A stretch of 31,646 bases of DNA from a virus (taxonomy: Duplodnaviria; Heunggongvirae; Uroviricota; Caudoviricetes), in the IMG/VR virus record IMGVR_UViG_648276671_000019, positions 1 through 31,646 of that record; one strand, given 5' to 3'. The position numbers and the translations under genes were made by a program. Shown piece after piece: positions 1,041 through 18,265 of this stretch. Below the pieces are notes generated by a model. It did not search any database. It was given only the letters and a program-made list of their open reading frames with translations, and was not told the DNA's origin. Position 1 is the stretch's first letter, and the number at the start of each line of letters is the position of its first letter.

Positions 1041-4000
1041 TGTACAATCCTCCATCCCGACGCGATGACTGCATAATTGACACAACCCTGCTGTCGATCA
1101 GATCCACCAGTCCCCTGGCTGAGCGCGCATCTATCTCGCCATTGCTCCCTTGATTCTGAATGCTGATGTGATACACGGGAGAATAAACAAATCCCCCGCC
1201 ACCACTCACATTACCAATAGCTCTGACTCCAAGAGAGCCATCCGCTGCCCGGGTCAGTGGCATGATAGCTTCAGGCCCGGCCTCGCCCATCAGCCCGGCA
1301 CCTTTCGCAAAAGCAAAATACGTCGGGGTATCCACAATGGTGTTACTGTAAGCACTCAGATTTGCCGATGTGTAAACACCACCTTTTGCGTTTGCCACTG
1401 CACCGGAAAGCCAGTCGCCGACCGTACCAAGCCATCCTCCGGCACCGGACATGCTTTTGGAAAGTGACTTCAGCCCGTTAACGATGGCAGCGTTCATCAG
1501 AATTTTTGAAACTTCCCGGAGAACTGAGCTCCCCCAGTTTCTCCACTCCACAACATTCCCGGCCAGTGCATCGGAAATATTTGATACCAGCCCGTCCATC
1601 GTGGAAACGACAGCATCTGCCGCCTGTGAAGCATAATCGGCAGCACTGTCTGCCCAGTTCGTCAGTCCCTCTCTGAGTCCGGCATTCCAGTTATCACGCA
1701 AAGCATCGGCCTTTGCATAATAATCCTGCTGATCGCTGAGACGCTCTTCCAGATATTTTTCATTCAGCGCTTTTTCCTGTTTCCACAGGGCTTCTTCAAT
1801 TTCTCCGGTCTGATACTGCCTCAGCAGCTCATTATTTTTCTGCTCAAATTCCTGCCGGATACTCCACATTTCCTGGAGTCGTTCACGCATCCGTGAGCCT
1901 TCACCATATCCCAGCAACTGCGCTTCGTCAGATGCCCGGGCACTGGCATTACTGTCCGCCAGACTGCTCTCATACGCAGCAAGCTGCTCACGAATTTTTT
2001 TCTGGTCGATAAGTGCTGCATTCTGCAAAAGCGTTTGTTTCTGCGCTTCTGACAGGGTTGATAATTCGCCCTGACTGACCTGATATTTCATCTTAGCTAG
2101 TTCAGTATTTTGTCCTGCCAGCGCTATTTGTTCTTTTTGCTGCTTAATCAGTCGCTTATAAGCATCTTCCGTTTTTTCTGCTTCTGACTTACCTCTCCTG
2201 GGTTTATTGGCCTGATTATTTCGCCAGGCTTCCAGCCCGATGTTGATATAATCCTGACGAGCAATCTGATATTTATCGCCAATAAAACCAAGATCATCTG
2301 CAGCAAAACCAAGGCGTGCACGCTCTTTTTCCTCACCTTTAAGGCGGGAAAGCTCCAGCGCCTGTTTACTGCGTTTTATGGCATCCTGCTGCTTATCATC
2401 CAGGGTTGCCTGCGGCAGTCGTAACGGGGCATTCACCAGCCCCTGACGCTGCTGAAGTAACTCATTACCAAGCCCGAGAAGGCGATTAAACTCAGTATGC
2501 TGACCGTTCATGATCAACAGGGACTGATACGCTTTGTTTTGTTCCGCTGCCTGTTGACGGATCAACGCCACCCGTCGCTCCTCCAGCCCGGCAAGCACAT
2601 CCTGAATGGATTGCGCCTTGCCCTGCATTTGAGTGAGACGGGACTGTTCAACTGCCAGTTGATTTGTTGCTTCTGCAAGCCCTTTAAGGATGATTTCAGC
2701 ACCCGAACCACTCTGCGAACTTTCATCAAGCCAACGTTGATAGTCAGCAATTTGATTTTTCAGTCCGCGAATTTTTCCTTCCTGTTCGCTAATCAGGCGA
2801 TTTTGTTCCTCCAGTGCCTTCCGCGTCTTTTCTTCATTATCTGACGTTTCAGGAAGCGACATTGCCGACGTTTTCTGGCGAATTTCGTCGATTGTTGCGG
2901 CATACTGGCGTGCAGATTCTCTGGCCTGCTCCTGATTCTGATACATCGTGTACCAGGCCGCGGCCCCCAGCATGACAAGCCCCGGCACACCACCAACCAG
3001 CCCCAGCGCACCACTTAACAGACGGCTCCCCACTGACGTAACATTATTCAGCGTTGTCTGTGCCGCTGTTCTGGCCACAATATTACGGGTAAGTGACGCC
3101 TGAGCAGCTGTCAGCTTCGCTTCTGCTGCGGCCTGCCTTTCGGTACCACGAGCAGCAACAACCGCCTGTTGCGCACGATAAACCGCCGCACGCGCCCTGG
3201 CGGTTGCTATCTGTGTCCCCCGAAGTTGCGCTTCAGCAAGAGACACTTCATTTCTGGCCGCAGTGATTAGCCCGGCAGTTGCAGAGCCAGCAGAAGACGC
3301 CATATTGCCAAAATATCGGGCTACCCCGACGGCAACCAGAGCACCGGCAGCGGTTGCCACAGTGTCAATATTGCCTGCAATACCATTCAGCACACCGGAG
3401 AGCGTCTTCGTCACTCCGCTTGCCTCGTTCGCACCACCAACCCAGGCCATAAAGGCGTTTTCAACTTTGGTTGCAGAGGATGAAACCGTATCAGGCATTG
3501 CCGCATATTCATCACGTAATGCCCCAAGCTGACTAATCAGTGCAGGAACAACCTTATCGGCGGTCAACTTTCCGTTATCCGCCATGGCCTTCAGATCCTT
3601 ACGGGCAACTCCCATTCCCGCAGCCAGCGCACGAATAACACGATCACCGTTCTCATTCACCGAGTTAAACTCTTCACCGCGCAGCACTCCCTGCGCCAGA
3701 GCCTGACTGAACTGCGTGATCACCGAACTGGCTTCTGCTGTACTGGCACCGGATAATTTCAGGCCCGTGGAGATCGCCTCGGTGACTTTCAGTACCTCCT
3801 CAGAACTGTAACCATACTCCCGCATGGAAGCTGCAGAGCGGGCAAAAAGGCTGGCGTTATCAGAAAAAGCCGTCCCCGTTCTCTGGCTGATCGCCATTAA
3901 TTCACGCTGTGATGACTGAAAATCATCACTGGACTGTGAGGCCTGCTTCAGACGGGCATTTACTGAATTCCACTCATCGGCGAGAGAAATAAGATGACCG

Positions 4001-7267: not shown

Positions 7268-8485
7268 TTATTTGCCAGTGAGCGCCTTGATGGCTGCCAC
7301 ATCTTCCAGCACACAGTCAAAACGATGGAAAGCCAGAAATGCCACCTGATCAAACTCAGCATAACGCTCAACCAGACGTTTCAGTTCCATATAAGTAACG
7401 CGGCGAATGATAAAGCGGTTGAAATCCCCCAGGAAAATGAATTTTTTTCCGGTACCAATCCCGTCAATAGCCTGATCAATAACATAAGGGATCCCCAGCA
7501 CAGTAGCCGGCGTACCGCCTGCAATATCCGGCAGCCATAACGGGCGTTTCTGTCCATCCTCCATCTCTTCAATAGTCTGCAATGTGGCATCATTGAATGC
7601 CCAGCGGTATTTCGGCCCACCACGATATGCCGGATCAATGGCATGTTTCAGGGCATTCATTTCTTTCCAGGTGAAAGCGGCAGAGGCTGCAGTCTGGATG
7701 GTTCCCGTCACCGACGCTGCCAGCCCTTTTGGCTGTAACGGTGATCCCGTTCCGGTCCCCTGAACCAGATATTTTGCCTCTCCACGACCAATACGCTGGG
7801 CAATACGGTTTGCCAGATAAGATTCAATATCCACCCCACTGTCCTGGAGCAGCTCATTGGACACACGAATTATTTTTGATGACAGCTTTTTAGCCCCCAG
7901 AATAGCGGTCCCGAACGTCACATCCTGTTCCGTTGCGGCTGTATTTTCCGCCAGCAGTTCGCCCTCTTCAGTCGTGCCATCAGACGTTGACCAGGTGATA
8001 TCCTGCCCGGTTGATGTGGTCAGAAGTTGCGCCACACTGGCAATCCCGCCATAAGCCTTCATGGTGTCAATGATTTTGTTACGCATCTGCGTGGGCACCG
8101 TATATCCGCCCTGAGAATCCGTTGTTACACTCTGAGCCCGCAGTTCACGCATCAGATTACGCTCTTCAGCATTCAGTTCTGCAAATCCGGCACGCAGAAA
8201 ACGGTTAAATGCCGCAGCGCGCTTCTCTTCCACCACCTTTTTCCCGTTCTCCGCCTCATTATTCTGGCGCTCTTCCGGCCCGGACTCATCCACATATGCC
8301 TGATCCTGACGGCGCAACTCTTCTTCACGGGCGATTTGCTCATCCAGCGCATCCAGCTCAGCTTTCGCCCTGTTCCACTCTGCCCGTTGCTCATCAGTCC
8401 ATGCGTTATCACCAATTTTTTCATGCAGTGCACGCATATCCTTTGCAATGGTGTTTCGTTTTTGCTTCATCTCATGAAGTTTCAT
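7268..8485 (-). CDS. Major capsid protein, HK97 family, with N-terminal delta (scaffolding) domain
   Basis: 405 aa; coiled-coil, charged N-terminal ~100 aa followed by a capsid-fold region; located after the prohead protease as in HK97. Confidence 0.85.
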   Translation of the reverse strand: MKLHEMKQKRNTIAKDMRALHEKIGDNAWTDEQRAEWNRAKAELDALDEQIAREEELRRQDQAYVDESGPEERQNNEAENGKKVVEEKRAAAFNRFLRAGFAELNAEERNLMRELRAQSVTTDSQGGYTVPTQMRNKIIDTMKAYGGIASVAQLLTTSTGQDITWSTSDGTTEEGELLAENTAATEQDVTFGTAILGAKKLSSKIIRVSNELLQDSGVDIESYLANRIAQRIGRGEAKYLVQGTGTGSPLQPKGLAASVTGTIQTAASAAFTWKEMNALKHAIDPAYRGGPKYRWAFNDATLQTIEEMEDGQKRPLWLPDIAGGTPATVLGIPYVIDQAIDGIGTGKKFIFLGDFNRFIIRRVTYMELKRLVERYAEFDQVAFLAFHRFDCVLEDVAAIKALTGK

Positions 8486-12852: not shown

Positions 12853-13203
12853 TCAATTGATGCGTTCGCGCGCTGTTTTTGCTTTATGACAGGGCCAGCA
12901 CAGACTCTGCAGGTTACTGTCTGCATCCGTGCCACCATGAGCTTTCGGAATGATGTGGTCCACAGTTCTGGCTTCAACGGCTCTCCCATTGCGCAGGCAG
13001 TTCTGACACAGATGATTATCACGCTTCAGTATGCGCGCACGTATGGCATCCCATTTCGAGCCATAGCCACGCTGGTGGCGGCTCAGTCCGCGTTGATGCT
13101 GTACCCATCCTTCGCCACGATGTTTATCGCAGTAACCAGAACTGTCTGTGGTTGTACCTGCACATCCACGCTTACGGCAGGCGCGTGGGATTCGTGATGG
13201 CAT
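12853..13203 (-). CDS. HNH endonuclease associated with terminase
   Basis: 116 aa with Cys-rich zinc motif and HNH signature (VDHIIPKAHGGTDADSNLQSLCWPCH); the usual position next to the small terminase in HK97-like cos phages. Confidence 0.85.
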   Translation of the reverse strand: MPSRIPRACRKRGCAGTTTDSSGYCDKHRGEGWVQHQRGLSRHQRGYGSKWDAIRARILKRDNHLCQNCLRNGRAVEARTVDHIIPKAHGGTDADSNLQSLCWPCHKAKTARERIN

Positions 13204-13245: not shown

Positions 13246-13710
13246 CTACTTAATGCACTGAGTGCGGATATACTCCTGTGCCCCTTCCAGTTGCATCTGC
13301 ATCGTCATCAGCCGCTCTCTGAGGGTGAAATAATCCCGTTCAGCGGTGTCTTCCAGTCGGGGGCTGGTTGCATTATCCACGCCGGAGGCGGTGGTGGCTT
13401 CACGCACTGACTGACAGACTGCTTTGATGTGCAACCGACGACGACCAGCGGCAACATCAGCGCGCAGAGTTTCATTTTCAGCTTTCGCATTGGCTAATTC
13501 TCTCGAGTACTTTGCATCGAGAGCAGCAACATCACGCTGACGCTGCTGCATGTCAGCGATGGTGGCGATCGCCTGCTTCAGCTCACTGACTTTTTTATCA
13601 CGCTGTTCTTTGTAGGCGATGGCGTTATCACGGTAATGATTGACCGCCCACGACAGGCAGACGATGATGCAGATAACCAGAGCATAAATAATCGCGGCGA
13701 CTCTGCTCAC
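13246..13710 (-). CDS. Rz: Spanin, inner-membrane subunit (Rz)
   Basis: Translation closely resembles lambda Rz; probable GTG start at 13710 overlapping the endolysin stop (GTGA), the ORF-track start at 13725 being TTG. Confidence 0.85.
13308..13490 (-). CDS. Rz1: Spanin, outer-membrane lipoprotein subunit (Rz1), nested in Rz
   Basis: 60-aa ORF in the +1 frame inside Rz with lipobox LVVVGC and a PPPPP stretch; near-identical to lambda Rz1 as I recall it. Confidence 0.85.
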
Positions 13711-14240
13711 TGATCTATCCCCCAACAGGCTAATGCGCTTTCCTGGTCACGACGAATAACCTGTCCATAGCAGTTATTTGAACGTATGCGGCAATCGCGC
13801 CCACCATCTTTTATCCACCAGCGAATCGCCTCGCATGCACCTTTACGATCACCAGCATTCAGCCGCTTATAAAACGTCGACGGAAAACACTTACCGGGGC
13901 CAATGTTATAGGGACAAAATGACGCGATACCCGCTTTTTGTGGTTCGGTCAGTGGTACTTTAAGATTGCGCTCCACCCATGCCAGCGCCTTATCACGCTC
14001 AATGGCGTTGACCTGGTCGCATTTTTCCTTCGACAGTTTCATACCGGGAAAAACGGGTTTTCCATCCACCATCGTGGCACCCCGACAGATGGTCCAGATG
14101 CCGGACCCATCGCGGTATGCCGTTGTGTGGTTACCTTCTTTTTCATCCAGAAACTGGTCGAGAATATCAGGCGCGGGCGCACCGACGGCAATCAGTGCCA
14201 GAACGGCAGCCGACAGGCCGTATCTGATTTTTGCGTTCAT
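13707..14240 (-). CDS. Endolysin (T4-lysozyme-like), probably SAR type
   Basis: E-x8-D-x5-T catalytic triad ([20 protein letters not shown]); N-terminal weakly hydrophobic Gly/Ala-rich segment [17 protein letters not shown] consistent with a signal-anchor-release domain. Confidence 0.8.
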
Positions 14241-14303
14241 GGATATTTATCAGGATTTATCGGTTTCTGCCCACGGACAGGTTTATCTGTTCCGGTCAGT
14301 GAC

Positions 14304-14654
14304 TTAAGGTTGTGATTCCGGAGGAGTCTTCAGAGAACCAGTAATTCTTCCTGGTAGCTTTCCTTTGTAGGTTATCCACACATTCTGCGCATCTAAAATT
14401 ACGGGGTGCTTTTCCGGCGACTGCTCATCCCCTTCACATAACCCGGCAGCAACATCCAGGAAGACCTGTCTGATGCTCCTTCTGGCTGCTGCCTCATAAA
14501 ACTCCAGCGCGGCACCTTCAACACGGTCCAGCGAGATGTCCAGGTCAAAAATTTCACCGTCAAAGCGTTTTTTGTCCCGTAACGCTAAAGTTACCGTAAC
14601 TTTATTCTCAAAATTGCGGATCCCTTTCACAATCAGTTCATAGTTTTGAGTCAT
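14304..14654 (-). CDS. Hypothetical soluble protein inside the lysis cassette
   Basis: 116-aa ORF translationally coupled 4 nt after the holin stop, Shine-Dalgarno GGGGAGAG; no transmembrane segment or signal peptide. Confidence 0.55.
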   Translation of the reverse strand: MTQNYELIVKGIRNFENKVTVTLALRDKKRFDGEIFDLDISLDRVEGAALEFYEAAARRSIRQVFLDVAAGLCEGDEQSPEKHPVILDAQNVWITYKGKLPGRITGSLKTPPESQP

Positions 14655-14658
14655 TGAA

Positions 14659-14874
14659 TTACTCTCCCCGTGCAGCCTTACGCTTGTCTTCTCTGATTTT
14701 GAAGTACAGATTTGTCAGATAAGTCAGGAAGCCCAGAACCAGACTCCCCAGTACACCAATCGCAGCCCACTGTGACGGACTGACCTGATCAAGCCACTGT
14801 AAAAACCAGTAGCCAGCACTGCCTGCGGAGGTGCCGTAGGCAATGCCCGTTGAAATTTTATCCATGGATTTCAT
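14659..14874 (-). CDS. Holin, phage 21 S-like (pinholin) with dual-start motif
   Basis: 71 aa, [26 protein letters not shown] matches the S21 holin family; Met1-Lys-Ser-Met4 gives antiholin and holin starts; GGAGGTGAGG Shine-Dalgarno. Confidence 0.85.
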
Positions 14875-15157: not shown

Positions 15158-15232
<75 letters not shown>

Positions 15233-15233
15233 A

Positions 15234-15310
15234 TGGTCCGTCACCGAGGACTCGAACCCCGCACCATCAACTTAGAAGGTTGATGCTCTATCCCGATGAG
15301 CTAGTGACGG
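15234..15310 (-). tRNA. tRNA-Arg (anticodon UCU)
   Basis: Acceptor CCGTCAC/GTGACGG, anticodon stem TCAAC/GTTGA with loop CTTCTAA, T-loop TTCGAGT, 3' ACCA; 1 nt from the neighbouring tRNAs. Confidence 0.8.
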
Positions 15311-15311
15311 T

Positions 15312-15387
15312 TGGTGGCCCTTGCTGGACTTGAACCAGCGACCTGGCGATTATAACTCGCTCTCATCATTTAGCTAAAATGGCAGGG
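15312..15387 (-). pseudogene. Degenerate tRNA-Ile-like gene (ileX-like 3' half, anticodon loop GTTATAA)
   Basis: 3' half (TCGCC AGGTC GCTGG TTCAAGT CCAGC AAGGGCC A CCA) is nearly identical to E. coli ileX as I recall it; the 5' acceptor strand and D-arm do not pair properly. Confidence 0.35.
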
Positions 15388-15509: not shown

Positions 15510-16454
15510 ATGATTTTTCTCAAGAATGGCGAAAGTTTTATTCGCGTGAATGACTGGGCAGAAATTCAGGCGAGAGAGTCTTACTATCCCAAATTAGAGT
15601 TAAATGATCAGCAACTCTCTGACGTTTTTGGTTACTACGATGACCTACCAGAGGAAATTCCATGTGGGAAATCAAATTGCCGCAAAGGGCATAAAAAGGG
15701 ATTTCTGGTAGTTACGAAAGAAGGATTTGAAACGAATATCGGCCATGTATGTGGAACTAATGTTTTTGGTATAGCCTTTGATAATTTAGCAATAGAACTT
15801 TGCCGAAAAGCAGATTTCCATCGCTTACTTACCGCACTTAAAGAGGCAAAAGATGATATTTTTAGCTATTACAAACTCAAAGCCAAAATCGAATCTGGGC
15901 GTCCATCACTAACTGAGGTTGCTCATAGAATACTTGACATGAAAGACCCTAAAATCATCGGGCGTGCAGCTTATCAAACATTGAAAAAGATGGCTGCTTC
16001 TGGTGATGGGCGTGTTTTCCGCTCAAGATTAAAAAATACAGAAGAGCTAGAACTGGACGAAATTATGTCCCAAAAGCAAACAAGCGACTTAGCTCCGAAA
16101 GTTAACAATAAGAACAAAACCGTAAACGAACTTATTGGGGTAATACAATACCCTGAATGCTTGCTGAATGATTATGACATTGCTCTTCTTTATGAAAGAG
16201 ATATAAAAATGGTTCTGGAAAAATTAAACAAATGCAACCCAGATGAATTAACTGAAAGAGAGGTGTTGTCATTTGGAATAAAGGTTTCAAGATTAAGAGA
16301 GCGCTTTAGTTTTGTTCAGGAACGCTTAGAAAAATCGAGGTTTTTTGCAACAAGAGAAAATCTTAAACCTTTACGCGCATTACTTAACATCCAGAAATCT
16401 GTAAGCAACAAAGACAAATTACTATTTAAGAAATTTATGGAAAATTTACCATAA
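15510..16454 (+). CDS. Hypothetical protein (314 aa), opposite-strand insertion between Q and the lysis genes
   Basis: Long ORF in visibly AT-rich DNA, TAAGGA Shine-Dalgarno 8 nt before the ATG, terminator hairpin directly after the stop; Cys/His cluster CGKSNCRKGH...HVCG; no family recognised. Confidence 0.7.
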   Translation: MIFLKNGESFIRVNDWAEIQARESYYPKLELNDQQLSDVFGYYDDLPEEIPCGKSNCRKGHKKGFLVVTKEGFETNIGHVCGTNVFGIAFDNLAIELCRKADFHRLLTALKEAKDDIFSYYKLKAKIESGRPSLTEVAHRILDMKDPKIIGRAAYQTLKKMAASGDGRVFRSRLKNTEELELDEIMSQKQTSDLAPKVNNKNKTVNELIGVIQYPECLLNDYDIALLYERDIKMVLEKLNKCNPDELTEREVLSFGIKVSRLRERFSFVQERLEKSRFFATRENLKPLRALLNIQKSVSNKDKLLFKKFMENLP

Positions 16455-16589: not shown

Positions 16590-17405
16590 TCAGTAACTCG
16601 TTGCCTTCTCAAATGCTCTAGCCGCATGCCGCTCACCTTGATGCAGGATATCAACCAATTTTTCATAGAATGGTTTCCAATTGCGCGACCATGAAGACTG
16701 GTGCAGATCGGGAATGTATATTTGAATAGCTCGATGAACATTAGCTGATTTGATAGATACGAATCCCTTTCCACTACAACGCTCGCAGGTTTTAAATACT
16801 GGCATGCCTTGCTCTTTTGTCGCAATACGATCTAGAATTTTCCCTTTTCCACCACAACGGCAACGTGCGCTTATTGCTCCCCTGCCTTCGCAGACATCAC
16901 AGACTGCAGGCACACTCTCCATTATCTCCGTCCAATGCTCCCAATCTGATGGCCGAACAGCGCGAGAACGGCTGGCCCAGTACGGAGGCGGTCCCCACGG
17001 GAAAGAAACCTTTCGTGTAATTTGAGTCCGTGTGGTTCTACCGGTTCCTTTGCATATAGTGCAGACGCTGCTGGTAGCAGCTGAGCGAGAGTACTCAGCA
17101 AAGGCAAACTGCGCCAGTACCAGCATACACCACCCAAATTCACCACCAGCTGCTTTACGCACATTCTTCGGTGCAATTTCCATCGCGTGACGCGCAAGCG
17201 CCTGGACTGCCATCTGCTCATCAGTCTTGCTGATACCGGCCTTCCCAAAGAAAGCCGCCAGGCCAAACCGCTCACGATTGCTGGTGGTACCAATAGCCGC
17301 CATAACATCGGTGCCTGTAAGACGTTCCGGAGAGGTTCCTTTCACATCGTCGCCGATATACATTCCCTGAGGACTGAAGTATTTTAGCGATGCCTCAAGC
17401 TTCAT
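16590..17405 (-). CDS. Putative late antiterminator Q-like protein
   Basis: 271 aa from the ATG at 17405 (GGGGAG Shine-Dalgarno; overlaps the upstream stop); Cys-rich zinc-finger-like motifs CDVCEGRG...CRCGGKGK and CERCSGKG; last gene before the late promoter region. Confidence 0.5.
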   Translation of the reverse strand: MKLEASLKYFSPQGMYIGDDVKGTSPERLTGTDVMAAIGTTSNRERFGLAAFFGKAGISKTDEQMAVQALARHAMEIAPKNVRKAAGGEFGWCMLVLAQFAFAEYSRSAATSSVCTICKGTGRTTRTQITRKVSFPWGPPPYWASRSRAVRPSDWEHWTEIMESVPAVCDVCEGRGAISARCRCGGKGKILDRIATKEQGMPVFKTCERCSGKGFVSIKSANVHRAIQIYIPDLHQSSWSRNWKPFYEKLVDILHQGERHAARAFEKATSY

Positions 17406-18265
17406 TATTCGCACTCCCCAACCAGATTGAGGATGACCGCCGCACCGTCGTCTTCCATGTACTCCCCCTTACCACTTGCCAGAAACCAGCGGCACACCTC
17501 CACAGCTTCGGTGCGTGTTACCGGTTTGATGGTTACCAACAATTTTTCCAGGTAGCGCTCGCGGTCATATACCGATTCGTGATGCTCAGAGTAACCAAAC
17601 TCATCGCCCTGTTCTTTGGTTGCAGTGTGGCGAACACTGTAGAGCCAGTCCCAGTAAACAAACTCACGAACTACGTCTGACAATGTATGAGGCTCTGGCA
17701 GTACATCACGATAGCCATCAACATATGCACGACGCTGATCATCAATTTCATTCATACGGATGCCGTCAATGCTGCCCGCTTTCTTCTCTGCCGCAGTCCA
17801 GCCCCAGAGATGATCGTCGATAAATTTCCGGGAAGACTTGATCACTCGCTCGGCTTCCACATCTTCGAGTGCTGCTTCATAGCTACCAAACGTAGCCCTG
17901 ACTGATGCTGCTTTTTTGATATTCTCCCGGGCGTTCCTGATTGCCTGTGCCGGGTTATCCATGCCGATGGTACCGAAAGCAATCTGGAAAGGATCACAAC
18001 CATTCGCCAGCAGATAACGCGAGTAGCGTTCCCGGGCCTCTTCTGACGATATTTTAATTTTCTCCAGTGCAGCTTCGGCAGCGTCCAGATGCGCGGGTTC
18101 ATTCAGGCGGATTACCTCCAGTACCCAAAGATAAGCATCCGTCTGTTTATGCCCGGTAATTTTTCGTTGCTCCGGCAACGGCTTGATATTTGCAGGAACA
18201 AAGCTATGCGCAGCCGTCGGGATGGTGAACAGTGTTTTGTGTACCTGATTGTCTGTGCGCATCAT
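17405..18265 (-). CDS. Hypothetical protein (286 aa)
   Basis: ORF coupled to the primase upstream and Q downstream; no family recognised. Confidence 0.6.
   Translation of the reverse strand: MMRTDNQVHKTLFTIPTAAHSFVPANIKPLPEQRKITGHKQTDAYLWVLEVIRLNEPAHLDAAEAALEKIKISSEEARERYSRYLLANGCDPFQIAFGTIGMDNPAQAIRNARENIKKAASVRATFGSYEAALEDVEAERVIKSSRKFIDDHLWGWTAAEKKAGSIDGIRMNEIDDQRRAYVDGYRDVLPEPHTLSDVVREFVYWDWLYSVRHTATKEQGDEFGYSEHHESVYDRERYLEKLLVTIKPVTRTEAVEVCRWFLASGKGEYMEDDGAAVILNLVGECE

What the first reader, a model, noticed from the sequence alone, without database searches (positions are those of the whole stretch)
14304..14654. Extra soluble 116-aa gene between the pinholin and the SAR-type endolysin
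Phage 21-type lysis cassettes normally run holin, endolysin, Rz/Rz1. Here an additional gene is coupled 4 nt after the holin stop, with its ribosome-binding site inside the holin 3' end, and it has no membrane or signal features. It could be a lysis regulator or an unrelated insertion.
Basis: partly seen in the sequence, partly recalled or inferred. Interest (0 to 1): 0.5.

Follow-up and report, generated by a model that had tools for sequence, protein, structure and literature searches.

The report
YdfR-family gene inside prophage lysis cassette
The extra gene between the holin and the endolysin is real, but it is the well-known, very common YdfR (DUF1327) accessory gene of E. coli lambdoid prophages, whose function is still unproven and whose only experimental lead points to RNase E and RNA binding, not to lysis.

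Summary
A 116-aa ORF lies on the minus strand at 14304-14654. It starts 4 nt after the stop of a phage-21-type pinholin, and its Shine-Dalgarno sequence GGGGAGAG sits in the last holin codons. The product is soluble and acidic.

It is not a new gene. It matches Pfam DUF1327 (E 4e-42) and is annotated in RefSeq as "YdfR family protein". E. coli K-12 prophage Qin has the same order, essQ-ydfR-rrrQ-rzpQ, with the same 4-nt spacing. Its DNA occurs in about 78% of 5,426 complete E. coli genomes and in 101 of 438 phage records that carry this holin type. Phage 21 and VT2-Sakai lack it, so it is an optional insert.

Distant relatives in Yersinia, Pantoea and Salmonella prophages sit between tail genes, between Q and the holin, or after an unrelated holin. 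The family is therefore a mobile accessory gene, not a fixed lysis component.

The conserved core is a roughly 75-aa domain of three strands and a helix (pLDDT 87). It has no informative structural relative.

The only functional data are for K-12 YdfR, which is 81% identical over the mapped region. It binds the N-terminal half of RNase E and co-purifies RNA. My best guess, at moderate confidence, is a late-expressed modulator of RNA decay. Interest is low to moderate.

The parts
14304..14654 (-). YdfR-family (DUF1327) gene, 116 aa plus stop codon
   Evidence: ORF listed. Pfam PF07041 E 4e-42. PHROGs 2091/406, function unknown. RefSeq annotation 'YdfR family protein' at 99.7% DNA identity. dN/dS 0.23-0.42.
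14427..14654 (-). Conserved N-terminal domain, aa 1-76: three strands (5-14, 18-27, 34-43) and a helix (50-73). Y5, Y53 and E54 are conserved across the whole family.
   Evidence: AlphaFold model of aa 1-78, mean pLDDT 87.2. Family alignments. 81% identical to aa 1-74 of K-12 YdfR, the part that sufficed for RNase E and RNase G interaction in PMC13232886.
14307..14426 (-). Variable C-terminal module, aa 77-116 (GLCEGD linker, then PEKxPxILxAQxVWITYKGKLPGRITGSLKTPP). Other family members carry different tails here.
   Evidence: Alignments A1 and A2. Low model confidence, pLDDT about 45. Against YYZ-2008 this part is 85% identical in DNA, like the endolysin (83%), while the N-domain is 61%, which shows the gene is mosaic.
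14662..14669 (-). Shine-Dalgarno sequence GGGGAGAG inside the last codons of the holin. It serves ydfR here and serves the endolysin R in cassettes that lack ydfR.
   Evidence: Sequence read directly. Junction comparison with K-12 Qin, YYZ-2008, VT2-Sakai and phage 21.
14659..14874 (-). Phage-21-type class II holin (pinholin), 71 aa, with the dual-start motif MKSM
   Evidence: PF04971 E 1.4e-35. 98.6% identical to S21 of phage 21. Dual start annotated in phage 21.
14241..14303 (-). 63-nt spacer between ydfR and the endolysin. Its last ~20 nt (ATAAATCCTGATAAATATCC) are conserved in YdfR-bearing cassettes and hold no clear Shine-Dalgarno sequence.
   Evidence: No significant RNA structure, z 0.66. 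No promoter- or terminator-like site.
13707..14240 (-). Endolysin, 177 aa: T4-lysozyme family with a weakly hydrophobic N-terminal SAR-like segment
   Evidence: PF00959 E 2.2e-24. Maximum hydropathy 1.87 at residue 9. E-X8-D-X5-T motif read in the translation.
13246..13725 (-). Rz i-spanin ORF (true start may lie slightly downstream), with the Rz1 o-spanin embedded at 13308-13490
   Evidence: PF03245 E 4.4e-49 and PF06085 E 2.2e-19.
15158..15383 (-). tRNA cluster (Gly-TCC, Arg-TCT and a weaker third tRNA) in the late-operon leader upstream of the holin
   Evidence: ARAGORN. Rfam.
16590..17414 (-). Antiterminator Q gene. A promoter-like site just downstream (16563-16534) is the likely late promoter that drives the tRNAs, holin, ydfR, endolysin and Rz.
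   Evidence: PF03589 E 2.4e-51. Promoter-like consensus match only.

Best explanation
The gene is a member of the YdfR (DUF1327) family. This is an optional, mosaic accessory gene that E. coli lambdoid prophages carry at the holin/endolysin junction of the late operon.

Shown:
- It has no promoter or terminator of its own.
- It starts 4 nt after the pinholin stop.
- It uses the Shine-Dalgarno sequence embedded in the last holin codons. In cassettes without it, that same site serves the endolysin.
- Its product is a soluble, acidic protein with a conserved ~75-aa N-terminal domain of three strands and a helix, and an exchangeable C-terminal tail.

Inferred:
- It is made late in infection, together with the lysis proteins.
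- By homology to K-12 YdfR, the N-domain binds the catalytic N-terminal half of RNase E (more weakly RNase G) and/or RNA.
- It therefore acts on RNA decay or processing in the cytoplasm during late development, for example on the stability of the long late transcript, and not on the membrane steps of lysis.

Family membership is near certain (about 0.98). The RNase E/RNA mechanism is a moderate-confidence inference, and the stated confidence refers to it.
For: Family identity:
- Pfam DUF1327 E 4e-42.
- RefSeq name 'YdfR family protein' at 99.7% DNA identity.
- K-12 Qin has the identical gene order and the same 4-nt spacing.

Optional insert: absent from phage 21 and VT2-Sakai; present in YYZ-2008, mEp460, PhiR12_2_star and Stx1_699.

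The Shine-Dalgarno sequence is shared with R of VT2-Sakai.

No promoter- or terminator-like site lies within the cassette.

The protein is soluble.

The N-domain model has pLDDT 87.

Function lead, from PMC13232886:
- Residues 1-72 of K-12 YdfR were recovered three times in a two-hybrid screen with RNase G as bait, and gave stronger signals with RNase E constructs.
- Full-length YdfR interacted with Rne 1-597.
- Rne 1-598 co-eluted with Strep-YdfR.
- DNase-resistant nucleic acid co-purified with it.

The window protein is 81% identical (96% similar) to K-12 YdfR over aa 1-74.

Distant homologues lie outside lysis cassettes, which argues for a function independent of lysis.
Against: - The RNase E data rest on one paper and on overproduced or fused proteins.
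- The co-purification was not nuclease-treated, so the contact could be bridged by RNA.
- YdfR overproduction changed only a few transcripts and did not affect growth.
- The interaction was never tested for this allele or during phage development.
- The consistent placement after a holin in E. coli and Salmonella could still reflect a lysis-related role.
Confidence: 0.4

Rival explanations
1. A permissive-site accessory gene with some other function unrelated to both lysis and RNase E, for example anti-defence, superinfection exclusion or host manipulation. On this reading the holin/endolysin junction is only a tolerated insertion point in the late operon, and the RNase E signal is an overexpression artefact.
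For: - Presence/absence polymorphism among close relatives.
- Distant homologues occupy at least four different prophage positions: between tail genes M and L, between tail genes I and J, between Q and the holin, and between holin and lysozyme.
- Outside E. coli the gene is often paired with a small convergent ORF, which suggests a self-contained module.
- C-terminal tails are exchangeable, giving proteins of 72 to 287 aa.
- The taxonomic range is narrow: 90 clusters among 1.84 billion representatives.
Against: - No match to any PADLOC defence model.
- No promoter of its own, so it is not expressed like a classical lysogen-benefit moron.
- Almost no ydfR reads in K-12 under standard growth conditions.
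- No positive evidence for any specific alternative function.
Confidence: 0.3
2. A cytoplasmic lysis-timing modulator. It would act either directly, by binding the cytoplasmic face of the pinholin or the SAR endolysin before release, or in cis, because the insertion takes over the strong ribosome-binding site in the holin 3' end and leaves the endolysin with a start region that lacks a Shine-Dalgarno sequence, lowering endolysin synthesis.
For: - Fixed position 3-4 nt after the holin in all E. coli phages examined.
- Position after an unrelated holin family (PF16080), though about 120 nt downstream, in Salmonella.
- Shine-Dalgarno takeover and a conserved Shine-Dalgarno-less region upstream of R.
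- ydfR is listed among envelope-leakiness (CPRG) hits of the Keio collection in the supplement of PMC3879167.
- A soluble lysis-inhibition cofactor has a precedent in T4 RIII (from my own knowledge, not tested here).
Against: - No membrane or signal segment.
- S21 already encodes its own antiholin through a dual start.
- Phage 21 and VT2-Sakai lyse without it.
- Distant homologues lie in tail-gene clusters.
- PHROGs matches are only to families of unknown function, none to annotated lysis regulators.
- The Keio hit may be a polar effect of the kanamycin cassette on the downstream lysozyme rrrQ (my inference).
Confidence: 0.2
3. A decaying or non-functional ORF that hitch-hikes in prophages.
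For: - Many truncated, fused or frameshifted variants in the databases.
- K-12 Qin is a cryptic prophage.
Against: - dN/dS 0.23-0.42.
- Invariant residues across homologues of 25-30% identity.
- Confident fold prediction.
- Present in inducible, plaque-forming phages.
Confidence: 0.03

Closest known systems
E. coli K-12 YdfR (b1555, P76160) of cryptic prophage Qin; Pfam DUF1327 / RefSeq 'YdfR family protein'
   Same: - Same Pfam family.
- Same position, essQ-ydfR-rrrQ-rzpQ, with the same 4-nt gap after the holin.
- 81% identity over aa 1-74.
- Holin 82% identical.
   Different: - The C-terminal part after residue ~74 is unrelated: K-12 is 103 aa with a different tail, the window protein is 116 aa with the PEK...KTPP module.
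- In K-12 the ydfR stop overlaps the rrrQ start; here a 63-nt spacer follows.
YdfR-family genes of functional phages (vB_EcoM-606R7, mEp460, YYZ-2008, Stx1/Stx2c-converting phages)
   Same: - Holin, then YdfR 3-4 nt later, then lysozyme.
- 606R7 is 98.4% identical in DNA over the whole cassette.
   Different: Tail lengths vary (104, 114, 116, 169 and 263 aa). Some carry a coiled-coil extension and a convergent small ORF.
Phage proteins that target RNase E: phiKZ Dip (gp37), T4 Srd, T7 gp0.7
   Same: By inference only: a small phage-encoded protein that contacts the host's main endoribonuclease (PMC13232886 for YdfR; PMC4980113 for Dip).
   Different: - No sequence relationship.
- Dip binds RNA-binding segments of the RNase E C-terminal scaffold, whereas YdfR was mapped to the N-terminal half.
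- No effect of YdfR on RNase E activity has been shown.
- Details for Srd and gp0.7 are from my own knowledge, not tested here.
Accessory lysis regulators inside lysis cassettes (S21-71 antiholin, P1 LydB, Mu releasin, T4 RI/RIII)
   Same: Encoded within or beside the holin-endolysin cassette and co-expressed late.
   Different: - Most are membrane or periplasmic proteins; this one has no hydrophobic segment.
- No similarity to any annotated lysis PHROG.
- No lysis phenotype is known.
dsRBD and RNase H-like beta-beta-beta-alpha units
   Same: Three antiparallel strands packed by a helix. Co-purification of RNA with K-12 YdfR would fit an RNA-binding unit.
   Different: - It lacks the first helix of a dsRBD.

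Membership tests
YdfR / DUF1327 (PF07041) | Match to the Pfam model above the gathering score | tested here: met
   142.8 bits against a cut-off of 25, E 4e-42, profile positions 1-92 of 93.
YdfR / DUF1327 (PF07041) | Conserved N-terminal core with the family-wide residues Y5 and Y53-E54 (the EFYE motif) | tested here: met
   Alignments A3 and A5, which include 25-30%-identical homologues from Yersinia and Pantoea.
YdfR / DUF1327 (PF07041) | Prophage-borne; in Escherichia directly downstream of a class II holin and upstream of a lysozyme | tested here: met
   Window, K-12 Qin, YYZ-2008, mEp460, PhiR12_2_star and Stx1_699.
YdfR / DUF1327 (PF07041) | Binding to the RNase E N-terminal half and to RNA (reported for K-12 YdfR only) | not testable with these tools
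   Only homology is available: 81% identity over the mapped residues 1-72.
Antiholins / membrane-bound lysis regulators | Transmembrane, SAR or signal segment that places the protein at or across the inner membrane | tested here: not met
   Maximum 19-residue hydropathy 0.69, GRAVY -0.39.
Antiholins / membrane-bound lysis regulators | Sequence similarity to a known lysis regulator family | tested here: not met
   Only PHROGs of unknown function were matched; the lysis-category PHROGs were hit by the holin and the endolysin, not by this protein.
Antiholins / membrane-bound lysis regulators | Changes lysis timing when deleted or overexpressed | not testable with these tools
   Indirect data only: no growth defect on overexpression of K-12 ydfR, and a listing among CPRG envelope hits.
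Moron (autonomously expressed lysogenic-conversion gene) | Present or absent among otherwise similar phages | tested here: met
   Absent from phage 21 and VT2-Sakai, present in YYZ-2008 and others. 101 of 438 phage records with this holin type carry it.
Moron (autonomously expressed lysogenic-conversion gene) | Own promoter and terminator; deviating base composition | tested here: not met
   No promoter- or terminator-like site in the cassette. 4-nt spacing from the holin. GC 46.7% against 50-53% in the neighbours, not a clear outlier.
Phage RNase E inhibitors of the Dip type | Sequence or fold similarity to phiKZ gp37 | tested here: not met
dsRBD | Alpha-beta-beta-beta-alpha topology with significant structural similarity | tested here: inconclusive

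The most novel reading that the evidence does not exclude
YdfR-family proteins, carried by most E. coli genomes in their lambdoid prophages and co-translated with the holin, may be a widespread temperate-phage device. Their beta3-alpha N-domain would dock onto the catalytic half of RNase E/G, or onto RNA, to reprogramme RNA decay in the last minutes of infection. Their exchangeable C-terminal tails, and in other genera a convergent partner gene, would tune target or specificity. That would make YdfR a new class of phage-encoded RNase E effector acting on the N-terminal domain.
Probability: 0.25. Interest if true: 0.55.

Novelty: already known. Interest (0 to 1): 0.25.

Why it matters
The gene and its position have been known since the E. 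coli K-12 genome (ydfR in prophage Qin), and NCBI names it routinely, so the finding adds no new element.

It still marks a real gap. A protein present in about four of five E. coli genomes, and in many Shiga-toxin phages, sits inside the lysis cassette with no established function.

If the RNase E/RNA-binding lead holds, it would be a common temperate-phage effector of host RNA decay. If the gene instead shifts lysis timing or endolysin dosage, it would bear on Stx release from STEC prophages.

Both ideas can be tested with a single in-frame deletion in an inducible prophage.

Tried and rejected
Structure and function searches that led nowhere:
- Sequence search of PDB chains: nothing.
- PADLOC defence models: nothing.
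- NCBIfam: no model for this protein.
- Foldseek against BFVD: no match at E <= 0.001.
- The afdb50 library was unavailable.

Regulatory elements, none found:
- The 63-nt ydfR-endolysin spacer folds no better than shuffled sequence, z 0.66.
- No promoter- or terminator-like site in the cassette.
- Rfam finds only tRNAs.

Other attempts:
- The search for related loci with the broad family alignment failed because no block was conserved enough. I used the search for homologous proteins plus look-up of encoding contigs instead.
- The 'DUF1823' label on the convergent ORF of PhiR12_2_star is below Pfam's threshold (15.3 bits against 25) and was rejected.
- Literature searches for 'YdfR family protein', and for ydfR together with essQ, gave nothing functional.

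I considered and rejected the idea that the ORF is a chance reading frame (Pfam match, dN/dS) and the idea that it is a classical moron with its own promoter.

Full report
**1. The observation**

The lysis cassette lies on the minus strand.
- The holin ORF occupies 14659-14874 (71 aa, starting MKSMDK...).
- Its TAA stop (14659-14661) is followed by the 4 nt TTCA and then by the ATG (14652-14654) of a 116-aa ORF that ends at 14304.
- The sequence GGGGAGAG at 14662-14669 lies in the last holin codons. Its GGAG core is 9 nt upstream of the ATG, a normal Shine-Dalgarno arrangement.
- After a 63-nt spacer comes a 177-aa lysozyme (13707-14240), then Rz (13246-13725) with Rz1 embedded (13308-13490).

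Pfam confirms the neighbours: phage-21 S holin PF04971, Phage_lysozyme PF00959, Rz PF03245 and Rz1 PF06085. The holin is 98.6% identical to S21 of phage 21.

The 116-aa product has no hydrophobic segment. Its maximum 19-residue hydropathy is 0.69, against 1.7-2.7 in the holin, the endolysin N-terminus and Rz. It has pI 5.4 and GRAVY -0.39.

**2. What it is**

The protein matches Pfam DUF1327 (PF07041) with E 4e-42 and 142.8 bits, against a cut-off of 25. It also matches PHROGs of unknown function. RefSeq annotates sequences that are 99.7% identical in DNA as 'YdfR family protein'.

The name comes from ydfR (b1555) of the cryptic prophage Qin of E. coli K-12. There the order is essQ (holin), ydfR, rrrQ (lysozyme), rzpQ/rzoQ, with the same 4-nt gap after the holin.

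The window protein is 81% identical (96% similar) to K-12 YdfR over residues 1-74, after which the two sequences are unrelated. dN/dS against four homologues is 0.23-0.42, so the frame is under purifying selection.

**3. How common it is**

- DNA of the gene is found in 4,257 of 5,426 complete E. coli genomes, at 8,024 places and with up to 8 copies per genome.
- The N-domain part alone is found at 7,970 places in 4,255 genomes.
- This holin allele is found by the same method at 3,284 places in 2,262 genomes.
- Among phage records, tblastn finds YdfR in 101 and the S21-type holin in 438.
- Phage 21 itself has S21 overlapping R21 with nothing between them.
- VT2-Sakai has S, 4 nt, then R.
- YYZ-2008, mEp460, PhiR12_2_star and Stx1_699 have the holin, 3-4 nt, YdfR, and then the lysozyme.

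The 'extra' gene is therefore a frequent alternative form of the cassette, not an oddity of this window.

**4. Anatomy of the insertion**

I aligned the junctions of the window, K-12 Qin, YYZ-2008, VT2-Sakai and phage 21.
- In VT2-Sakai, the GGGGAGAG in the holin 3' end, followed by TAA and 4 nt, precedes the endolysin ATG.
- Where ydfR is present, the same site precedes the ydfR ATG.
- The endolysin is then preceded by a conserved AT-rich stretch, ATAAATCCTGATAAATATCC, with no obvious Shine-Dalgarno sequence. This stretch is also present in the Salmonella loci.
- The first residues of the endolysin differ with the arrangement: MNAKI with ydfR and MSRKL without it.

So the right-hand recombination joint lies in the first endolysin codons.

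The gene itself is mosaic. Against YYZ-2008, the N-domain is 61% identical in DNA. Codons 77-112 are 85% identical, like the endolysin at 83%.

Within the cassette I found no promoter-like or terminator-like site. The spacer has no RNA structure beyond shuffled controls. No Rfam family other than the upstream tRNAs was detected.

I infer that the gene is transcribed only as part of the late operon. That operon starts downstream of the Q antiterminator gene (16590-17414, PF03589).

**5. The wider family**

A profile search of 1.84 billion representative proteins found only 90 clusters. The family is essentially enterobacterial: Escherichia/Shigella, then Salmonella, Yersinia and Pantoea.

The distant members are 72-76-aa proteins that consist of the N-domain only. 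Y5, Y53 and E54 are invariant or nearly so.

E. coli members add exchangeable tails. One is the PEK...KTPP module seen here, another is an alternative CSE(A/E)RYTI module, and some add a coiled-coil extension. Total lengths run from 72 to 287 aa.

The genomic context of the distant members is informative:

| Locus | Organism | Position of the DUF1327 gene |
|---|---|---|
| L006 | Pantoea | between Q and a PF05106 holin |
| L008 | organism not named in the output | between tail genes M and L |
| L009 | Yersinia | between tail genes M and L |
| L013 | organism not named in the output | between tail genes I and J |
| L010-L012 | Salmonella | between a PF16080 holin and the lysozyme |

The family is a mobile accessory gene that lands at several points of the late region. 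It is not tied to the pinholin.

**6. Structure**

- The full-length model was poor: mean pLDDT 60.8, with the C-terminal module at about 45.
- The N-domain modelled with the broad alignment was good: pLDDT 87.2, pTM 0.72. It has strands 5-14, 18-27 and 34-43 and a helix 50-73.
- BFVD gave nothing at E <= 0.001.

I treat these matches as a generic beta3-alpha motif and not as evidence for any homology.

**7. Function**

The only experimental data I found concern K-12 YdfR, in Gopel et al., RNA Biol 2026 (PMC13232886).
- Residues 1-72 were isolated three times in a bacterial two-hybrid screen with RNase G as bait. They gave stronger signals with RNase E constructs.
- Full-length YdfR interacted with Rne 1-597.
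- Rne 1-598 co-eluted with Strep-YdfR.
- DNase-resistant nucleic acid co-purified with it.
- Overproduction changed few transcripts.
- Overproduction did not affect growth.
- ydfR was almost silent under standard growth conditions.
- The co-purification was not nuclease-treated.

A Keio-collection CPRG screen lists ydfR among envelope-leakiness hits in its supplement (PMC3879167). Because the kanamycin cassette would sit directly upstream of the lysozyme gene rrrQ, I consider a polar effect likely. That is my inference.

**8. Verdict on mechanism**

I commit to the following, with decreasing certainty.
- (a) Shown: this is a YdfR/DUF1327 gene placed at the holin/endolysin junction. It has no promoter of its own and starts behind the Shine-Dalgarno sequence embedded in the holin.
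- (b) Inferred, confidence about 0.4: it is expressed late from the late operon. Its product is a cytoplasmic protein whose N-domain contacts the N-terminal half of RNase E and/or RNA, and it influences RNA decay late in infection.
- (c) Rivals:
  - an accessory gene with another function, unrelated to both lysis and RNase E (0.3);
  - a lysis-timing modulator, including a purely cis effect on endolysin translation (0.2);
  - a non-functional ORF (0.03).

**9. Novelty and score**

The gene, its family name and its position are already in the databases and in K-12. I rate the finding as already known. It carries an unresolved function and a recent, testable lead. Interest is 0.25.

Noticed in passing
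L006:3740-4045(-), L008:3745-4026(-), L009:3778-4029(-), L011/L012:3809-4048(-), L013:3782-4006(-), L015:1958-2218(-): In Pantoea, Yersinia and Salmonella prophages, and in one E. coli phage, the DUF1327 gene is followed directly by a small convergent ORF on the opposite strand (74-101 aa, no Pfam family). The 3' ends often overlap by 4-50 nt. These ORFs share a loose motif, a hydrophobic helix followed by LD(E/Q)(Q/D/E), and give weak pairwise BLAST matches. This may be a two-gene module. The window has no such partner.
   Followed up: partly
window 15510-16454 (+): A 314-aa ORF lies on the strand opposite to the late operon, between the Q/late-promoter region and the tRNAs. Its GC is markedly low (32-40% against about 50-55% around it). 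It matches PHROG 7003 (function unknown) and has no Pfam or PADLOC match. This looks like a classical moron or cargo position.
   Followed up: partly
window 14241-14260 (-) and the same position in L005, L010, L011: The endolysin start in YdfR-bearing cassettes is preceded by a conserved AT-rich stretch (ATAAATCCTGATAAATATCC) with no recognisable Shine-Dalgarno sequence. In cassettes without ydfR the endolysin uses the strong GGGGAGAG in the holin 3' end. The effect on endolysin dosage is unknown.
   Followed up: partly
window 15158-15383 (-): Two clear tRNA genes (Gly-TCC and Arg-TCT) and a third weak tRNA-like match (31 bits) lie in the late-operon leader, just upstream of the holin. Phage 21 has tRNAs in the same place.
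   Followed up: no
window 12853-13203 (-): An HNH endonuclease gene lies between Rz and the small terminase subunit gene, as in HK97-like cos phages where HNH assists the terminase.
   Followed up: no
window 17405-21817 (-): The replication region encodes a large SNF2/DEAD-type helicase (861 aa), a primase with Zn-ribbon/Toprim/DUF7146 domains (322 aa) and a 286-aa protein of unknown function (PHROG 6204). It does not encode lambda O/P-type proteins.
   Followed up: no
P0072, P0095, P0189, P0192 (database homologues): Some family members contain two tandem N-domains: 170-196-aa proteins with two matched stretches. The most divergent are P0189 and P0192, whose organisms are not known. This suggests the domain may work as a dimer.
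   Followed up: no
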